A stretch of 64,000 nt of DNA from a virus (Duplodnaviria; Caudoviricetes): positions 17,577 to 81,576 of IMG/VR virus record IMGVR_UViG_3300028832_000122. The stretch is one strand, 5' to 3'. The notes below the pieces were generated by a model that ran no database searches, was not told where the DNA came from, and saw nothing but the letters and a program-made list of their open reading frames with translations. Below are positions 9,017 through 53,369 of the stretch, one piece after another (the stretch's first letter is position 1; the number at the start of each line of letters is the position of its first letter). Position numbers and translations under genes: made by a program.

Positions 9017-9102
9017 GCGTTTTTTACCGTGCTTCTCTGCACCTGTTTATTGTGCGTTTTAACGTCTTCTCTGACGGTTCGCGTTTTAACGTCTTCTCTG
9101 AC
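9017..9102 (-). repeat. Three direct repeats upstream of the scaffold RBS
   Basis: gcgttttaacgtcttctctgac at 9054-9075 and 9081-9102 (identical); degenerate copy at 9017-9040. Confidence 0.8.
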
Positions 9103-11704: not shown

Positions 11705-13345
11705 TTAAAACGGCCTTGAAAAAACCTGCACCTGCCCCGCAGTGAACCACTGGATATAATCTGCAAACATTGCCATACTGTCTGGCGCATCATCGTGCTT
11801 TGCTTTCCCGTTCATTGTCCAGCTGCACAGGTTGTCCATGAAGGATCTGTATTCCTTGTCTTTAATCACTGACGGATCCTTGAACAGAAACCGTTCCTTC
11901 ACGTACGGAGACGCCATGACGATCTTTGTCTCTTTATTCTGCGTCGTGAATTTCGTGGTCAGTTTTGTACGCCCACCACGCCGTTTTACCTCTGCCTGCA
12001 CATCCTGGGCAACCCTGCCGCCAGCACTGTTGGACTCAAACCGTCCCATATGAACATTATGTTCCAGGAGCTTTGACACAATCTCTGCTTCTACGACTTC
12101 CGGATTCGCATTGTTAAACACCACGTCTTCCACGTAGAAGTCCTGGCCGTACTGATACGCAATAGGCATAGAACAATAGTCTGCACCTTTGTCTTTTGTA
12201 TCACACACGCACAAGATCGCATCAGGTTCCCTATCAGGCAGTTCAAAGTACCGTCTCAGTTCATCCGGATGATACAGCAGGCCTTCTCTCTCAATCGGCT
12301 CGTTCATGTACAGCGCGCGCCATGACACATCGTCCATAACTTTCCGCTGTTCATGGTAAAACTGCGTGCTGAATCCTACGCCAAACTGATAGTCGAAGTT
12401 GCTCTCATCATTCTCATCCAGCGCAGGCACAGCAATAAACTCAGCCCTGTTGTTTCCTTCATATTGGCGTTTAAGTCTTCCAAGTATATCTGCCACAGCC
12501 CACCTTGTCGCAACGTGAAGTTCCTTGCAATGATCTCCAATCTTTCTCTGCCGAAGGTCTGTAGTGTAGATTTCCCATAGTTTGTCCAGTCGTTCTATAC
12601 TCAACGCAACCTCCAACCCACTGATTAAGTCGTCGCAATATAGCAGACGCATGGCACGATACAGACCTGCATTCCCAGAACCTATACTTGTAAACTCAAG
12701 TGTTTCAAATCTTTTTCGTTTCCCTAAATCTATCCGATAATCCTTTGCATTTGTGTTTGTAACGTTCACGTCCGGAAACACGTCATGCCACAGATATTCT
12801 CCGTTCGGATCAAATATCCTCAAGCACTCATCATATACACCACGTACAAATGCGTTACTGTGCGATCCAGTAAGATCCGGTTCTTCCGGCCATTTCCCCG
12901 CCACCCATGTCAACAGGAAAATTGCCAACGTCGATTTTCCAACACCTGGAGGCAGACTGACCCCAAGTATATCAAGTTCGTCGTCCATTAACCTTTGGAA
13001 CGCATTCACAACCTTCAGAAGTTTTTTCCTCCTGGGAAGATAAAACCGCTTCCTCGGCTCTCTGTCCCGCTCAATGTACTGGCAGTATGCGTCAAAGTCC
13101 ACACGTGCATCCGCAAGCAGGCTCTTGTAGTACGTGTCGTTCATTATCTCAAGAAACCGCGTGTCCTTCGGATGCGCTCTTCGGATCTCATTGCTGATCT
13201 TTCTCCGAAGTTCCTTATTTGCTTCGTGCATCCCTGGCTTCCCATTCTGTATCCCTTCATACAGAATCGAAAGAGCGTCCCTGTATATCAGCGGGTCATA
13301 AGGCCGTAACTCTATGTTCCGCCGTATAATCTTTAACTCGTCCAT
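11705..13345 (-). CDS. terL: Terminase large subunit
   Basis: Walker A 'SLPPGVGKS', Walker B 'LLYCDD', nuclease 'CDTKDKGADY' and 'HDDAPDS'. Confidence 0.95.
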   Translation of the reverse strand: MDELKIIRRNIELRPYDPLIYRDALSILYEGIQNGKPGMHEANKELRRKISNEIRRAHPKDTRFLEIMNDTYYKSLLADARVDFDAYCQYIERDREPRKRFYLPRRKKLLKVVNAFQRLMDDELDILGVSLPPGVGKSTLAIFLLTWVAGKWPEEPDLTGSHSNAFVRGVYDECLRIFDPNGEYLWHDVFPDVNVTNTNAKDYRIDLGKRKRFETLEFTSIGSGNAGLYRAMRLLYCDDLISGLEVALSIERLDKLWEIYTTDLRQRKIGDHCKELHVATRWAVADILGRLKRQYEGNNRAEFIAVPALDENDESNFDYQFGVGFSTQFYHEQRKVMDDVSWRALYMNEPIEREGLLYHPDELRRYFELPDREPDAILCVCDTKDKGADYCSMPIAYQYGQDFYVEDVVFNNANPEVVEAEIVSKLLEHNVHMGRFESNSAGGRVAQDVQAEVKRRGGRTKLTTKFTTQNKETKIVMASPYVKERFLFKDPSVIKDKEYRSFMDNLCSWTMNGKAKHDDAPDSMAMFADYIQWFTAGQVQVFSRPF

Positions 13346-13574
13346 ACCATACCTCCAGTAAAAAACGGGAACAAGCCTTTCGCTCATTCCCGCAATCATG
13401 CGTGTTCATTATTCGCTTAGTATCTCGTCCGCCTGTGACTCTCCATCATAGAACGCTTCCCATGTATCACACTTCTCCGGATCACAGCCGTCCTTGTACT
13501 CTTTGCACAAGCCCGCGTATGCACACTCGCCTTCATGCCTGTATACGTCGTCTCGCTTCCAGAAAACAGGAGCA

Positions 13575-15219: not shown

Positions 15220-15272
15220 GGGATGCTGAAAAAATGTAGCATCCTGGCGGGATGCTGAAAAAAAGTAGCATC
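15220..15272. repeat. Tandem palindromic repeats
   Basis: gggatgctgaaaaaatgtagcatcc (15220-15244) and gggatgctgaaaaaaagtagcatc (15249-15272). Confidence 0.75.
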
Positions 15273-48274: not shown

Positions 48275-48775
48275 TCACTCTCCTTCCAACTCAAGATACT
48301 TTGTCTGAACATACCCGCAGTTGGTAACGCACCACTCGTCACTCCACCAATATACCTTAACGGATGCCAGAGGTTTTAACCATCTCGTACGTCTGCCCTT
48401 CACATACTTCCTTGCAGCAAGCCTTCCCTTGCTGACAATCACGGCAGACTGGTTCGTCCTTATCGGCTCATCATATACAAGATACCCTGCGAATACCCAT
48501 CCGTCCGACTCAAGACCCGTATCCACAATATGCCTGTACCCGTTTCGTTTCTTTCCGTCAAGATGCACCGTATCGCCGGACTCGAGTCTTCCGATTGGCT
48601 CGCCGTTCCGGTTCGGGAACGGGCGGACGTTCACGTAGTCAGCGCACAGAACGTACGCCTCTGTCGTGTCGTCCGACCGCTCCGCAAACCCGACGCTCTG
48701 ATAAAACCAAATGACGGCAAGGATGACCGCAATCAGTACGATGATTTCCGCAACGGTTTTACAGATTCTCTTCAT
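48275..48775 (-). CDS. Membrane-anchored SH3b-like domain protein
   Basis: N-terminal TM segment, then 'YVNVRPFPNRNGEPIGRLESGDTV' and a second SH3-like repeat. Confidence 0.6.
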   Translation of the reverse strand: MKRICKTVAEIIVLIAVILAVIWFYQSVGFAERSDDTTEAYVLCADYVNVRPFPNRNGEPIGRLESGDTVHLDGKKRNGYRHIVDTGLESDGWVFAGYLVYDEPIRTNQSAVIVSKGRLAARKYVKGRRTRWLKPLASVKVYWWSDEWCVTNCGYVQTKYLELEGE

Positions 48776-49233
48776 GCAGATTCCTCTTTCATCAGTTCGT
48801 CGATGGCATTCATAACCCCGGCGAGTTCTGTCAGCGTGCAGTACTTTGTCTTGAACGAAAGCAGTTCGCGCTTTGCGACTTCGAGCAGGCGGTCACGCTT
48901 TGCCTCGTCGCTCATGATGATTTCAGTGGGGATATACTCATGCGTGCCACGCTCGATGTTGAAGTATGCCCTTACAGGTTTCGGCTCATCCTGGATATCG
49001 TGCGTGACCACAATGCTTGCGATCATGACACGGCCTGTCTGTTCCCGCCACTTCTGCGCGGCTACGGTATCGTTCCACTCGAACTCCGAATGGAGCGGTG
49101 CGTCTTCCGGCCTGCTGACCTCCACCAAATCCATAGCGGAAAGCCGTCCTTCCGCTGACAGTTGATCCATCACCGCCTTTGCGACGTTCGGATCAGTAGT
49201 AAACCTGCTTCCTTTTACCCAAGAAACTCCCAA
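48772..49233 (-). CDS. Hypothetical protein directly downstream of the GGY-NN array
   Basis: RBS AAAGGAG right after the last array unit; 'SRPEDAPLHSEFEWND..AA'. Confidence 0.75.
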   Translation of the reverse strand: MGVSWVKGSRFTTDPNVAKAVMDQLSAEGRLSAMDLVEVSRPEDAPLHSEFEWNDTVAAQKWREQTGRVMIASIVVTHDIQDEPKPVRAYFNIERGTHEYIPTEIIMSDEAKRDRLLEVAKRELLSFKTKYCTLTELAGVMNAIDELMKEESA

Positions 49234-49255
49234 GTGATTTCACTCCTTTCATTAT

Positions 49256-49861
49256 TGAACCAGCCATAATCAACCAAGACCAACGCTGACGCAACTTGCC
49301 TTTCCCTGCCTGCCATAACTCGACATACACGGCCTCAACTTGAACCACCTAAGCGCAACTTACCTAGCCTGCCTAACCCCACAAAAACGCGCCAAACCTC
49401 ACCGCACAACAACTTACCCCACATTGCCTGCCATGCACTGCCTTGCCGACGCCGCGCCCCGACTCGCCATTCATTACCTCACCGTACGGAACCTTGCATC
49501 ACCTTGCCTGCCACGCCATACGTTACCGTTCCTTGCCGTGCCGTAGCATGCCGTGCCATACCGTACCCAACAACACCTCGCCTGCCTTACCGAATCCAAA
49601 CTAACCGAGCCAATCCAAACCCTGCGCTACCGGACAATACAACAACGCACCATGCCTGCCACGCCATGCCTGTCCACACAGTACCGCACAGTACCGAGAC
49701 TCAACTTGCCTGCCATACCTTAACAAACCAAGCACGGCCATAACAAACCATACCTAGACTCGCCTGCAGCAACCATACCTTGCCTGCGTTGCCGTACCGT
49801 AACGAGACACACCCTGCACAAACTAACCCAACAATACCATCCATGCCCACCCATGCCTGCC
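49256..49861 (-). ncRNA. Array of nine units, each GGCA + (GGY-NN)10-15; putative guide-RNA array
   Basis: Hand-parsed strict 5-nt periodicity; GGCAGGC anchors start at 49861, 49788 (variant), 49714, 49660, 49586, 49512, 49432, 49373 and 49314; unit lengths 73, 74, 54, 74, 74, 80, 59, 59, 59. Confidence 0.85.
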
Positions 49862-49865
49862 TTTA

Positions 49866-50591
49866 TCAGACGCCTTCCACATGGAACATGCCGTACTGAC
49901 CGTCACGCTCTGGACGCCACTCGCCGATTCCGCAGATATATCCGCCTGCGTTCAGCATCGTCAGGATCTGGTCAATGCTCTTGTCGCCGTTCTCGTTGAA
50001 GGAAAGGGTGAACTCTGCGGACCAGTTATCAAACTCGCCACGGTAGCGGATATCAGCACTGCCCATTCCGACCTTCACCATGTCGCGGCGCATCGTCAGC
50101 CGTTCATACTGAATCTCAATCATGGGTTCCGGATGGAACACGTTCGGGATAATGTCGATCTGCTTCTGATCGTCGGAGATTTCGAGGTCGCCTGCATAGT
50201 ATCCGTTCACATCCGGCTCGATGAAGAACGCACCGCGCAGGCTCATCTTGTCCTTGCTCCATCCCATGCGGAACGCAGCCGAGATAGCCGCCTGCTTCAG
50301 TCCTGTCAGCGGGAATCCGAACCGTGCGCCGTTGGCAATCGCCTTGTCCAGGGATTCCTTCGTGATCTCATCCGGCATCTTGTCGAGCCAGTACATGCTG
50401 GACGCAAAGTCCTCGTACGGATTCTTCTTCATCTTGCCGACCTTTTTAATCCCCATCTCCTTCTCGAGGATCTCACGCTGGGCCTTCACATCCCAGCAGT
50501 GTGTAATCAGCGGGGAATCGCCGACGATGCGTACCTTGACCAGCTTCTTCTTAATCGGTTCAATCTTGATAATCTCTTTCGCCTGTGCCAT
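49866..50591 (-). CDS. Cas7/RAMP-like RNA-binding protein
   Basis: N-terminal strand 'VKVRIVGDSPLI', helix motif 'GFPLTGLKQAAISAA', 'RYRGEF..W...FTL', C-terminal Gly loop 'GGYICGIGEWRPERDGQYGMFHV'. Confidence 0.7.
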   Translation of the reverse strand: MAQAKEIIKIEPIKKKLVKVRIVGDSPLITHCWDVKAQREILEKEMGIKKVGKMKKNPYEDFASSMYWLDKMPDEITKESLDKAIANGARFGFPLTGLKQAAISAAFRMGWSKDKMSLRGAFFIEPDVNGYYAGDLEISDDQKQIDIIPNVFHPEPMIEIQYERLTMRRDMVKVGMGSADIRYRGEFDNWSAEFTLSFNENGDKSIDQILTMLNAGGYICGIGEWRPERDGQYGMFHVEGV

Positions 50592-50721
50592 AATCATTCT
50601 CACTTTCTCTGCATATGCAGCCTTGATTTTTTTATTCGTTGTGCTTTACAATCTGATTGAATAAGTTTTCCTTTGGAACTGTTGACTGTTTGCGGCGGTC
50701 AGCAGTTTTTATTTACGGCAA

Positions 50722-50958
50722 TCAATCGCATCCACTTCCTTTCCACACAATCATCGGCGTCATGCCCTTTGCCCATGCAATGAATCCTTCGCGGGGAATG
50801 CAGTAACTGTGCCCCGCCTTGCAGATCGGAAAGCCGAGATACTTCGGCTTGCGTTCCGCCTGGTCACGGATCGTCTGTGGATCCTTTCCGAGGAACTCCG
50901 CAACTGTCTTCACGGTCAGCGTGTTGCATGTCATCTCTTCAATGTCTTTCAGTGTCAC
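50722..50958 (-). CDS. Excisionase-like HTH DNA-binding protein
   Basis: 'LTVKTVAEFLGKDPQTIR...GFP....G....IPREGFIAW'. Confidence 0.65.
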   Translation of the reverse strand: MTLKDIEEMTCNTLTVKTVAEFLGKDPQTIRDQAERKPKYLGFPICKAGHSYCIPREGFIAWAKGMTPMIVWKGSGCD

Positions 50959-51320
50959 GACCAGTCACCTTCCGGTGTCATGTATCCGCCATTCCGCCTG
51001 TACATGTCTGCAATTTCTTCCACTTCAAACGTGTGCGGTTTCGGCTGAACTGGATGATGCTTTTCATACTCGGCATAGAGCATCTTCACCCTGCGTTCTT
51101 CGGAAAGGATCGGAGCGTGCATGACAATGTAGGTCGTGCTTTCCTCGAACGTCTGCGTATGCTCCCCGATAAGGAAGTAAATCCCGTCAAGGATGTCACC
51201 CCAGATATCGAACCACGGCTGGTCATCCACGCCGATCTCAAGGTACTTTTCCTGCATTGCCTTTGTCTTCATTCCCGCACGTACCATCCGCAATAATGCG
51301 TCTTTGATTTCCTTCATCTT
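50955..51320 (-). CDS. Hypothetical protein
   Basis: In the early leftward operon after cro; approximate start at MKEIKD. Confidence 0.55.
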   Translation of the reverse strand, partial: KMKEIKDALLRMVRAGMKTKAMQEKYLEIGVDDQPWFDIWGDILDGIYFLIGEHTQTFEESTTYIVMHAPILSEERRVKMLYAEYEKHHPVQPKPHTFEVEEIADMYRRNGGYMTPEGDWS

Positions 51321-52109: not shown

Positions 52110-52308
52110 TGTTCACGTTATCCTTATGGATCTTCCTGTACGCATCCATGGTTTTGTCTGCCTTGGTTCTGATTATAACCCATGCATTGTTATTAATTCA
52201 AGGCTCACTTTTGAGCAACAGCAGAAAACTTTCCGACATGAGATGGACCATATCCTCTCAGGTCAGATGGATGATGAAAATTATTTTGAGTATGGAGACC
52301 CCGCATGA
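52102..52308 (+). CDS. ImmA/IrrE-like metallopeptidase (anti-repressor), short
   Basis: 'IVINSRL......TFRHEMDH' (HExxH) located between repressor and integrase. Confidence 0.75.
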   Translation: MNDVHVILMDLPVRIHGFVCLGSDYNPCIVINSRLTFEQQQKTFRHEMDHILSGQMDDENYFEYGDPA

Positions 52309-53369
52309 GAAAGACAAAAACACGCGGCAACGGGCAGGGCTGTGCGTACCGCCGGAGAAAAAAGGACGGCACGCTTTATCCGACATGGACGGCATCTGTC
52401 ACCATCGACTGGCGCTATCCGAAGGATCCTTCCAAACCGCGTATCCCGATCAAGCGCACAAAGGCAGGCTTCGCAACCAAAAAGGAAGCACTTGCCTATT
52501 GCCCTGTTCTCCTTGCCGGGAACTACGCAAAGCCGAAGCAGGCCCCGCGCCTGTCAGATTACTGGCGGACGTATTCCGAAAACGGCCTGACAAAGATCGG
52601 AAAGTCGAAACAAAGCGCCTACAAGACTGCATGGAACAAACTCAAACCAATCCACGACGCCCGCATCAACACCCTTACGCTGGACATATTGCAGGAAACC
52701 GTCGTCACCGTCGCAACCACTCATTACACCCAGAAGGACTGCCGGACGGTTCTGACAAAACTCTTTGAGCGAGGGTATGCTGACGGATACTGCCAAAGAG
52801 ATCTGCCTTCGCTGATAGAGATCGATTCGCTTGAGGAAAAGGAACAAACCCCGTTCAACAAAGAGGAACAAAAAGCACTCTGGCATGCGTATGAAAACGG
52901 CAACCTTGACGCTGGCATTCCGCTGCTCATGATATACACCGGCATGATGCCGGGGGAAGCGCAGCTCCTGAAGGTCGAACACATTGACCTGAAAAACAAA
53001 ACCATGTTCGGTATGAACCTGAAAACAAAAGTCCGCAAAAAGACACCGGTTGTCATTGCAGACTGCCTTCTCCCTGTCGTCGAGGATCTGATCTCCAGCG
53101 CACAGAAGTCAGGATTCATCTGGGCACGGAATGAAACAAGATGGTATGAAAGATACTATGCGGTTCTGAGCGCTTCCGGATGCCGTAAATTAACCCCGTA
53201 TTCCTGTCGGCACACGACGGCCACCGCCCTGGCTGTAGATGCAAAGATCGCGCCACAGACCATCAAGCGGGTCATGCGCTGGTCCACCTCAAAGATGCTT
53301 GACAAATACGCCCATCCGCAGATGAATGACGCTTTGGAAGCCGTCAACAAAATCAAGAAAAAAGGATAG
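52305..53369 (+). CDS. int: Tyrosine integrase
   Basis: Arm-binding N-terminus, 'YTGMMPGE', 'TPYSCRHTTAT', 'MRW......KYAH'; attP-like site directly downstream. Confidence 0.9.
   Translation: MRKTKTRGNGQGCAYRRRKKDGTLYPTWTASVTIDWRYPKDPSKPRIPIKRTKAGFATKKEALAYCPVLLAGNYAKPKQAPRLSDYWRTYSENGLTKIGKSKQSAYKTAWNKLKPIHDARINTLTLDILQETVVTVATTHYTQKDCRTVLTKLFERGYADGYCQRDLPSLIEIDSLEEKEQTPFNKEEQKALWHAYENGNLDAGIPLLMIYTGMMPGEAQLLKVEHIDLKNKTMFGMNLKTKVRKKTPVVIADCLLPVVEDLISSAQKSGFIWARNETRWYERYYAVLSASGCRKLTPYSCRHTTATALAVDAKIAPQTIKRVMRWSTSKMLDKYAHPQMNDALEAVNKIKKKG

What the first reader, a model, noticed from the sequence alone, without database searches (positions are those of the whole stretch)
48772..50591. Cas7/RAMP-like gene + GGY-NN repeat array + accessory gene: a candidate non-CRISPR RNA-guided system
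Seen: a 241-aa ORF (49866-50591) has RAMP-like motifs (N-terminal 'IVGDSPL', 'FPLTGLKQA', C-terminal Gly loop 'GIGEWRPERDGQYGMF'). A ~600-nt non-coding array starts 4 nt after its stop codon and ends exactly at the RBS of a third gene (48772-49233). No cas1/2/3/5/6 genes or classical CRISPR array occur in the window. Established: Cas7/RAMP proteins polymerise along guide RNAs with a fixed nucleotide period. Inference: the protein oligomerises on each array unit, binding the constant GGY triplets and displaying the NN dinucleotides to read a target. From memory this architecture matches recently reported phage 'VIPR'-type systems; I cannot verify that here.
Basis: partly seen in the sequence, partly recalled or inferred. 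Interest (0 to 1): 0.95.

Follow-up and report, generated by a model that had tools for sequence, protein, structure and literature searches.

The report
Phage VIPR guide-RNA system, staggered array
A temperate phage of gut or rumen Clostridia carries a VIPR system, a CRISPR-like but CRISPR-independent RNA-guided silencer first described in 2026, and four of its guides match essential genes of rival phages.

Summary
The 241-aa protein (49866-50591, minus strand) is a sequence homologue of the solved SUSP1 Vipr protein. It has a Cas7/Csm3-like RAMP fold and keeps the residues that read GGY.

The 632-nt spacer after it is the only 5-nt-periodic tract in the 81.6-kb phage record (z = 16). It parses into about ten guides of 10-15 GGYNN units. 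Each guide is set off by a 4-nt GGCA step, so unit lengths are 5k+4. This fits the "staggered array" variant described in a figure legend of the VIPR preprint, whose figure I could not see.

The 153-aa downstream gene is a conserved partner, found in 43 of 47 related loci. It is unrelated to SUSP1 vap1 and its fold is unassigned.

Under the published 1-nt-skip code, four window guides match genes of other phages: a DUF2800 nuclease, DNA polymerase A and two terminase large subunits. They match tens to more than 100 IMG/VR contigs each, always in codon register. Five other guide patterns gave zero hits. Skip-0 and skip-2 readings gave nothing, and there are no self-targets.

A guide in a sister phage matches this phage's own vipr gene at 19 of 20 positions.

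Verdict: a new member of a known kind. It is useful mainly as computational support for guide boundaries in staggered arrays.

The parts
49866..50591 (-). vipr gene: 241-aa RAMP (Cas7-like) protein, the guide-RNA-binding filament subunit
49261..49861 (-). vrRNA array: about ten guides of GGYNN pentamers, separated by 4-nt GGCA steps (visible as GGCAGGC)
   Evidence: Lag-5 autocorrelation 0.45. z = 16.3, and unique in the record. Viterbi parse. GGCAGG spacing is 4 mod 5 in 95 of 133 cases across 34 arrays. No Rfam family. Fold z = -0.64.
49789..49838 (-). guide g1, 10 units, no target found
   Evidence: Parse. Best 1-nt-skip match 15/20 in the loci held. Not scanned in the public collections.
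49715..49784 (-). guide g2, 14 units, no target found
   Evidence: Parse. Zero exact hits for the 3' 12 NN in IMG/VR and for the 5' 11 NN in metagenomes.
49661..49710 (-). guide g3, 10 units, no target found
   Evidence: Parse. Zero exact hits in IMG/VR.
49587..49656 (-). guide g4, 14 units; predicted target is the DUF2800 PD-(D/E)XK nuclease gene of other phages (guide sequence equals the template strand)
   Evidence: The first 11 NN are exact in at least 116 IMG/VR contigs. The full guide matches 25-27 of 28. 107 of 116 sites encode YEKKLLGITAM in codon register. PF10926 at E = 8e-152.
49513..49582 (-). guide g5, 14 units, best GGY conformity, no target found
   Evidence: Parse. Zero exact hits for the 3' 11 NN in IMG/VR and for the 5' 11 NN in metagenomes.
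49433..49508 (-). guide g6: 11 clean units, then a unit with a 1-nt insertion, then 3 more units; predicted target is a terminase large subunit gene
   Evidence: 22/22 NN exact in at least 116 IMG/VR contigs. 105 of 116 are sense, frame 0, with peptide KEKSTEKIDGA. The next residue is V in most sites (I in some), so the GT of the insertion unit fits the V codon there. PF20441 and PF03354.
49374..49428 (-). guide g8, 11 units; predicted target is a conserved stretch of a family A DNA polymerase gene (motif B from my own knowledge, not tested)
   Evidence: 22/22 NN exact in 43 IMG/VR contigs, all sense, frame 0, peptide KGKVAELALGY. PF00476. 66 of 115 DUF2800-target loci also carry this site at 19-21 of 22.
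49315..49369 (-). guide g9, 11 units; predicted target is a 464-aa terminase-like gene
   Evidence: 22/22 NN exact in 15 IMG/VR contigs, all sense, frame 0, peptide YKAYGKERIEM. The TerL_nuclease match is weak and below the Pfam cut-off.
49261..49310 (-). guide g10, 10 units, degenerate, no target found
   Evidence: Parse. Best match 16/20, the same as the skip controls.
48772..49233 (-). conserved accessory (vap-like) gene, 153 aa, function unknown
   Evidence: phrog_15946. Co-occurs with vipr in 43 of 47 loci. 227 homologues with an invariant PLH..F core and no Pfam family. AF2 pLDDT 88.5. No significant fold match. No similarity to SUSP1 vap1.
50431..50459 (-). site inside vipr (codons 45-54, EMGIKKVGKM) matched by a guide of a sister phage
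   Evidence: Guide L001:4793-4842 matches 19 of 20 NN in codon register. L001's own vipr matches only 15 of 20.

Best explanation
This is a VIPR (Viral Interference Programmable Repeat) system in a temperate phage of Clostridia. The layout is a three-part unit on the minus strand: vipr, then the vrRNA array, then a conserved accessory gene.

Shown here:
- The protein is a Vipr homologue with a RAMP fold and conserved GGY-reading residues.
- The array is built of GGYNN pentamers grouped into guides of 10-15 units, separated by a 4-nt GGCA step.
- The NN dinucleotides of four guides, read with one skipped base between them, match coding sequences of other phages exactly and in codon register.

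Inferred from the SUSP1 and P. fulva work:
- The array is transcribed with vipr.
- One Vipr protomer binds each pentamer, hides GGY and displays NN.
- The filament pairs with every first and second base of a 3-nt period in double-stranded DNA and blocks transcription.

The predicted targets are a DUF2800 nuclease, DNA polymerase A and terminase large subunits. The likely role is therefore to silence replication and packaging genes of competing phages in the same host. How the tail-less guides get their ends, and what the 153-aa partner does, are not known.
For: Homology to the solved SUSP1 Vipr: phmmer E = 1.8e-8 and hhalign probability 98.5%, E = 2.6e-15.

RNA-contact residues H17, R138, D177, W178 and R179 of SUSP1 correspond to H31, R184, E224, W225 and R226. 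All but W225 are invariant or more than 90% conserved in 60 homologues (paper 10.64898/2026.04.26.720927).

Periodic array: z = 16.3 and unique in the record. Arrays sit next to vipr in 38 of 41 viral loci.

Targets in IMG/VR: 43, at least 116, 15 and at least 116 exact gapped matches for four guides. Nearly all are in frame with the skipped base at the wobble position. The target genes were named by Pfam.

Chance controls: five other patterns of 20-24 specified bases gave 0 hits.

Skip-rule controls: skip-0 and skip-2 readings reach only 17 of 22 on the same 1.47 Mb. Among 122 independent guides from related arrays, 8 reach at least 95% under skip 1, against 0 under skip 0 and 0 under skip 2.

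Convergence: two guides fall on the same phages in 66 of 115 loci.

Self-avoidance: no self-target in the phage's own 81.6-kb record, and no homologue of any targeted protein in it.

DNA rather than RNA: three of the four guides have the same sense as the mRNA, so they cannot pair with it. This fits DNA targeting.
Against: - No expression, processing or binding data exist for this locus or for any staggered array. The preprint says only the ribozyme and single-guide architectures were confirmed by sRNA-seq.
- Five of nine guides have no identified target. Strict GGY conformity is only about 36-71% per guide (64-86% with G[GT]Y), so part of the array may be decaying.
- The target hits within each set are homologous sequences, so each guide counts as roughly one independent event, not dozens.
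- The array has no 3' tail or pseudoknot of the kind that caps SUSP1 guides.
- The accessory protein is unrelated to vap1 and gave no DNA-binding fold match.
Confidence: 0.9

Rival explanations
1. It is a genuine VIPR locus, but it acts by destroying or nicking the target rather than by silencing. The 153-aa partner would supply or recruit a nuclease, or would be the enzyme that cuts the array into guides.
For: The partner is unrelated to the DNA-binding vap1 of SUSP1. It has invariant polar residues (H48, R63, R88, Y100, E123, K130, Y131) that could form an active site. The preprint reports nuclease-type vap genes in types III-V. This partner family travels with GGCAGG-delimited, tail-less arrays in both gene orders.
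Against: No nuclease family or fold was detected by Pfam, PHROGs, a PDB profile search, Foldseek or VIA. The weak, non-significant fold rows lean to winged-helix regulators. Nuclease-type VIPRs are reported mainly in cellular defence islands, not in prophages.
Confidence: 0.15
2. It is a decaying or inactive VIPR remnant. The array is a fossil whose matches reflect past activity, and the locus no longer works.
For: Degenerate units (GTY, TGY, a 1-nt insertion at 49448-49453), degenerate boundaries (CGCA, GGAT) and five guides without targets.
Against: vipr and the partner gene are intact, with all key residues kept. Three guides match at 22 of 22 positions and a fourth at 25-27 of 28, which would not survive drift. 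The preprint describes internal degeneracy as common in working vrRNAs. G[GT]Y units are frequent in the related arrays too.
Confidence: 0.06
3. The periodic tract is not a guide array. It would be a G/T-rich structural or regulatory spacer (for example G-quadruplex-prone DNA or an attenuator) that merely lies next to a RAMP-like gene.
For: The tract is G-rich with GG every 5 nt. No promoter or terminator consensus was found inside it.
Against: It cannot explain exact 22-base gapped matches to conserved codons of other phages' genes that appear only under the 1-nt-skip reading. It also cannot explain hypervariable NN with conserved GGY across related arrays.
Confidence: 0.02

Closest known systems
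VIPR systems (Vipr protein plus vrRNA plus vap), type II as in Escherichia phage SUSP1 and the Pseudomonas fulva prophage (bioRxiv 10.64898/2026.04.26.720920, .720927, 2026.10.15.759431)
   Same: Homologous Vipr protein with the same G-loop (CG.G[DE]WRP) and the same thumb arginine. GGYNN pentamer guides of 10-15 units (published range 9-16). The 1-nt-skip code, with skipped bases on wobble positions. Targets in competing mobile elements, including another phage's vipr. No self-targets. Viral location, with no cas genes and no CRISPR array.
   Different: There is no 3' tail or pseudoknot: guides abut and are separated only by a 4-nt GGCA step. The array lies between vipr and the accessory gene rather than after both. 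The accessory protein shows no similarity to SUSP1 vap1 (hhalign probability 0.2%). The host is an anaerobic Clostridia lineage. Predicted targets are replication and packaging genes rather than a satellite recombinase or lysogeny regulators.
'Staggered vrRNA arrays' mentioned in the VIPR preprint (fig. S18 legend)
   Same: [quoted passage not shown] A GGCAGGC junction (units GGCAG and GGCNN sharing one G, or equivalently a 4-nt GGCA unit) fits that description.
   Different: I could not see the figure or the supplementary tables, so identity of architecture, VIPR type number and vap class is inferred from one legend. The preprint states that this architecture was not among those confirmed by sRNA-seq.
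Class 1 CRISPR-Cas backbone subunits (Cas7 / Csm3 / Cmr4)
   Different: The period is 5 nt with 3 hidden bases, not 6 nt with 1. The window has no repeat-spacer array and the record has no Cas1. The pairing is gapped, with 2 of every 3 target bases read.

Membership tests
VIPR system | Vipr protein homologous to an experimentally characterised Vipr | tested here: met
   phmmer against PDB: 36pp_D 'SUSP1 Vipr protein', E = 1.8e-8. Profile A1 against SUSP1 gene KT454805.2:28474-29061: hhalign probability 98.5%, E = 2.6e-15.
VIPR system | Residues that read G1, G2 and Y3 of the GGY motif are conserved | tested here: met
   SUSP1 H17, R138, C173, D177, W178 and R179 align to H31, R184, C220, E224, W225 and R226. 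R184 and R226 are invariant. H31 and E224 are at least 90% conserved in 60 homologues. D to E is a conservative change.
VIPR system | Adjacent non-coding tract of at least 4 tandem YNNGG/GGYNN units | tested here: met
   About 110 pentamers in 49261-49861, z = 16.3. Strict GGY holds in about 36-71% of units per guide, and G[GT]Y in 64-86%.
VIPR system | GGY conserved and NN hypervariable among related arrays | tested here: met
   Across 164 boundaries in 34 arrays, the pentamer positions read G 0.85-0.89, G 0.76-0.89 and Y 0.82-0.91, while the NN positions are mixed. Guides differ between phages whose Vipr proteins are 78-83% identical.
VIPR system | Natural targets obey the 1-nt-skip (NNx) code and are absent from the own element | tested here: met
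   Four guides have exact matches in 15 to more than 116 viral contigs. Skip-0 and skip-2 controls are negative. The best self match is 64-75%, equal to the controls.
VIPR system | Conserved accessory (vap) gene in the locus | tested here: inconclusive
   A conserved partner is present in 43 of 47 loci. It is not similar to SUSP1 vap1. Sequences of vap2-6 were not available, so its class could not be assigned.
VIPR system | Conserved structured 3' tail on each vrRNA (a feature of type II only) | tested here: not met
   Guides abut at GGCA steps. No Rfam match. Array fold z = -0.64 against shuffles. The preprint does not treat the tail as defining for all types.
VIPR system | vrRNAs are expressed and co-purify with Vipr; the complex represses matching DNA | not testable with these tools
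   This needs sRNA-seq, a pull-down and reporter assays.
CRISPR-Cas (class 1) | Repeat-spacer array and adaptation genes (cas1, cas2) with several cas effector genes | tested here: not met
   No direct-repeat array in the window. No Cas1 in the record, while 7 control genomes were positive. The locus has two protein genes only. Other cas families were not searched individually.

The most novel reading that the evidence does not exclude
In this clade the 4-nt GGCA step, not a structured tail, would define where each Vipr filament starts and stops. The conserved 153-aa partner would be the factor that recognises or cuts that junction. It is unrelated to vap1, has invariant His, Arg, Tyr and Lys residues, and travels with GGCAGG-delimited arrays in both gene orders. 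This would be a new maturation route for guide RNAs, functionally like Cas6 but with an unrelated fold.
Probability: 0.15. Interest if true: 0.6.

Novelty: new member of a known kind. Interest (0 to 1): 0.4.

Why it matters
VIPR was described only in 2026 and tested only in Proteobacteria phages with tailed guides. This locus extends it in three ways.

- It shows by computation that the same gapped code holds in a large clade of Clostridia phages: about 3300 sequence-cluster representatives, and 2316 clusters at 50% identity.
- It suggests that guide ends in tail-less staggered arrays coincide with the GGCA steps. Two guides match over exactly the 11 units between two steps.
- It shows that these phages aim at highly conserved codons of rivals' replication and packaging genes, where wobble-skipping makes escape by synonymous mutation useless.

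It also gives a concrete set of natural guide-target pairs for bench tests of the one array architecture the preprint did not confirm by sRNA-seq.

Tried and rejected
- **Pfam on the two proteins:** no family for either.
- **Rfam on 48500-51000:** nothing, so no hammerhead-type spacers.
- **Promoter and terminator consensus scan:** counts at the level of shuffles and no minus-strand promoter; the one terminator-like row inside the array is G-U-rich and probably spurious.
- **Guides g2, g3 and g5:** five collection scans gave zero hits.
- **Profile search of IMG/VR with the 60-sequence alignment:** The single protein was used instead.
- **The phage's own candidate terminase (11705-13399):** no Pfam family, so I state only that it is not similar to the targeted terminases.
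- **Do target matches continue across a GGCA step into the neighbouring guide?** By eye on the polymerase and terminase-like sites they do not. This was not quantified.
Full report
**What is in the sequence**

Three elements follow one another on the minus strand:
- a 241-aa ORF at 49866-50591;
- a 632-nt tract without a credible ORF at 49234-49865;
- a 153-aa ORF at 48772-49233 that starts with TTG behind a GAAAGGAG ribosome-binding site.

Upstream lie an HTH_17 excisionase/Cro-like gene (50722-50958), two divergent HTH repressor-like genes and a tyrosine-integrase-like ORF (52305-53369). Downstream lie an SH3 membrane protein, a DUF3799 PD-(D/E)XK nuclease, an SSB-like ORF and a helicase.

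The window is part of an 81,576-bp IMG/VR virus record that CheckV rates as complete.

**The periodicity is real**

On the gene strand the tract is 40% G and 15% C. Identity between bases 5 or 10 apart is 0.45, against 0.19-0.27 at lags 1-3 and 6-8. The periodicity statistic is 0.242, against -0.001 +/- 0.015 in 2000 shuffles (z = 16.3). The highest value anywhere else in the record is 0.059. An HMM for G-G-Y-N-N units marks 600 nt in the whole record, all of them here.

The motif GGCAGGC occurs eight times. A Viterbi parse shows that each occurrence is a 4-nt unit GGCA followed by a normal pentamer. The array is therefore a chain of guides of 10, 14, 10, 14, 14, 11(+4), 11, 11 and 10 pentamers, after a short 3-unit start.

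Two boundaries are degenerate (GGAT, CGCA), and one unit carries a 1-nt insertion.

**The protein is a Vipr**

- Pfam finds nothing, and PHROGs gives phrog_4652, of unknown function.
- A phmmer search of PDB sequences hits one relevant chain, 36pp_D 'SUSP1 Vipr protein', at E = 1.8e-8.
- A 60-sequence profile hits the SUSP1 gene, which I located at KT454805.2:28474-29061, with hhalign probability 98.5%.
- The cryo-EM paper (10.64898/2026.04.26.720927) names H17, D177, R138, W178, R179 and C173 as the residues that hold G1, G2 and Y3. They align to H31, E224, R184, W225, R226 and C220 here. R184 and R226 are invariant, and H31 and E224 are at least 90% conserved across the family.

The family is large: 3300 cluster representatives in one search, and 2316 clusters at 50% identity in another.

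**Relatives carry the same arrangement**

- Of 41 IMG/VR loci with a homologue, 38 have a 5-nt periodic tract next to vipr. The other three end at a contig edge.
- In the clade with at least 49% identity, the order is vipr, array, partner gene. This clade comes from viral contigs and from MAGs of Acutalibacteraceae, Oscillospiraceae, Ruminococcaceae and Lachnospiraceae.
- In a clade with 36-41% identity, which includes a Methylobacterium genome, the order is vipr, partner, array.
- The partner is found in 43 of 47 loci.
- Across 34 distinct arrays, the spacing of successive GGCAGG is 4 mod 5 in 95 of 133 cases. The modes are 44, 49, 54 and 59 nt. The pentamer positions are G, G, Y at 0.76-0.91, while the NN positions vary.
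- One lineage uses AACAGGC instead of GGCAGGC.

**The guides predict targets**

The preprint (10.64898/2026.04.26.720920) shows that the NN pairs are read against DNA with one skipped base. I wrote each window guide as NNxNNx... and scanned IMG/VR for exact matches.

| Guide (window coordinates) | Exact matches in IMG/VR | Orientation and frame | Peptide at the site | Target gene |
|---|---|---|---|---|
| g8 (49428-49374) | 43 contigs | all sense, frame 0 | KGKVAELALGY | proteins of about 620-690 aa with PF00476 DNA_pol_A |
| g9 (49369-49315) | 15 contigs | all sense, frame 0 | YKAYGKERIEM | 464-aa terminase-like protein; Pfam match below cut-off |
| g4 (49656-49587) | at least 116 for its first 11 NN; 25-27 of 28 over the full guide | antisense, still in codon register | YEKKLLGITAM | DUF2800 PD-(D/E)XK nuclease (PF10926, E = 8e-152) |

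I recognise the g8 polymerase site as motif B from my own knowledge; this was not tested.

**Controls**

- Five other guide patterns with 20-24 specified bases gave zero hits in IMG/VR or in the larger metagenome collection. This sets the chance level.
- On the 1.47 Mb of retrieved target loci, the same guides read with skip 0 or skip 2 reach at most 17 of 22.
- On 2.56 Mb of target loci, 122 independent guides from related arrays were scored. Eight reach at least 95% under skip 1, none under skip 0 and none under skip 2.
- In the phage's own record the best skip-1 matches are 64-75%, no better than the controls.
- The record holds no homologue of any of the four targeted proteins.

**Convergence and counter-targeting**

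- 66 of 115 loci with the DUF2800 site also carry the polymerase site at 19-21 of 22. Two guides therefore aim at one phage lineage with a DUF2800, Enc34-type SSB and PolA module.
- Contig L112 is a deletion remnant in which a PolA N-terminal fragment abuts a TerL C-terminal fragment. It keeps both the g4 and g6 sites, which suggests that the targeted terminase belongs to the same kind of phage.
- Conversely, a guide of L001, a phage whose Vipr is 83% identical, matches codons 45-54 of the window's vipr at 19 of 20 positions in register. L001's own vipr matches only 15 of 20. With about 1e8 guide-position trials, my estimate of the chance expectation for 19 of 20 is about 0.006.

**Mechanism**

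Shown: homology, fold, conserved contact residues, array grammar, and gapped in-frame matches.

Inferred from the SUSP1 and P. fulva structures:
- one protomer binds per pentamer;
- the GGY bases are flipped into the protein;
- the NN bases pair with the target strand in an R-loop triplex;
- transcription of the target gene is blocked.

Three of the four guides have the same sense as the mRNA, so they could not pair with it. This fits DNA recognition.

The array begins 4 nt after the vipr stop and runs to the partner's ribosome-binding site. No promoter or terminator signal above background was found. Co-transcription is therefore the simplest reading, and it remains an inference.

**What remains open**

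- The array has no tail. There is no Rfam hit, and the fold energy is no better than shuffles (z = -0.64). The legend of fig. S18 in the preprint describes staggered arrays with a 1-nt overlap, which a GGCAGGC junction fits. The preprint says this architecture was not among those confirmed by sRNA-seq.
- The partner protein models well (pLDDT 88.5). It has no significant structural or sequence relative and no similarity to SUSP1 vap1.
- Its class among vap1-6, and the VIPR type number, could not be assigned, because the supplementary data are not held.

**Verdict**

It is a bona fide VIPR locus of the staggered, tail-less kind, in a Clostridia phage. The kind is already published, so it is not categorically new. 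The natural guide-target pairs and the boundary evidence are useful additions.

This scan's other first-reader notes on the same stretch (e1-5797422, e1-5797423) describe the 5n+4 rule and the position after cro/xis. I reached the 5k+4 rule independently before reading them.

Noticed in passing
L001:4793-4842 against window 50431-50459: A guide in a sister phage (Vipr 83% identical) matches the window's own vipr coding sequence at 19 of 20 NN in codon register. Its own vipr matches only 15 of 20. This looks like VIPR-against-VIPR targeting between close relatives.
   Followed up: partly
L112:2739-3217: A 12-kb viral contig in which an N-terminal fragment of DNA polymerase A abuts a C-terminal fragment of a terminase large subunit. 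It looks like a deletion remnant that still carries two sites matched by window guides. It also encodes a large serine recombinase and a STAND NTPase.
   Followed up: partly
L007:3858-3922 and L008:3803-3857: Two relatives carry an extra periodic guide-like tract upstream of vipr, as SUSP1 does. The window has none upstream.
   Followed up: no
L024:4640-4900 (same in L025): In this lineage the array boundaries read AACAGGC instead of GGCAGGC, so only CAGGC is common to both boundary types.
   Followed up: no
phage records NC_031249.1 (32768-33319), NC_023580.1 (37021-37563) and 28 others: Cultured Gordonia and Mycobacterium phages (UmaThurman, Pipp, ODay, Saal, Quico and others) encode homologues of this protein at 28-35% identity, all annotated as hypothetical protein. 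They could serve as tractable laboratory models.
   Followed up: no
   Followed up: partly
window 15220-15272 and 9054-9102: Two pairs of near-identical 22-24-nt direct repeats 27-29 nt apart, possibly operator or terminator-like sites.
   Followed up: no
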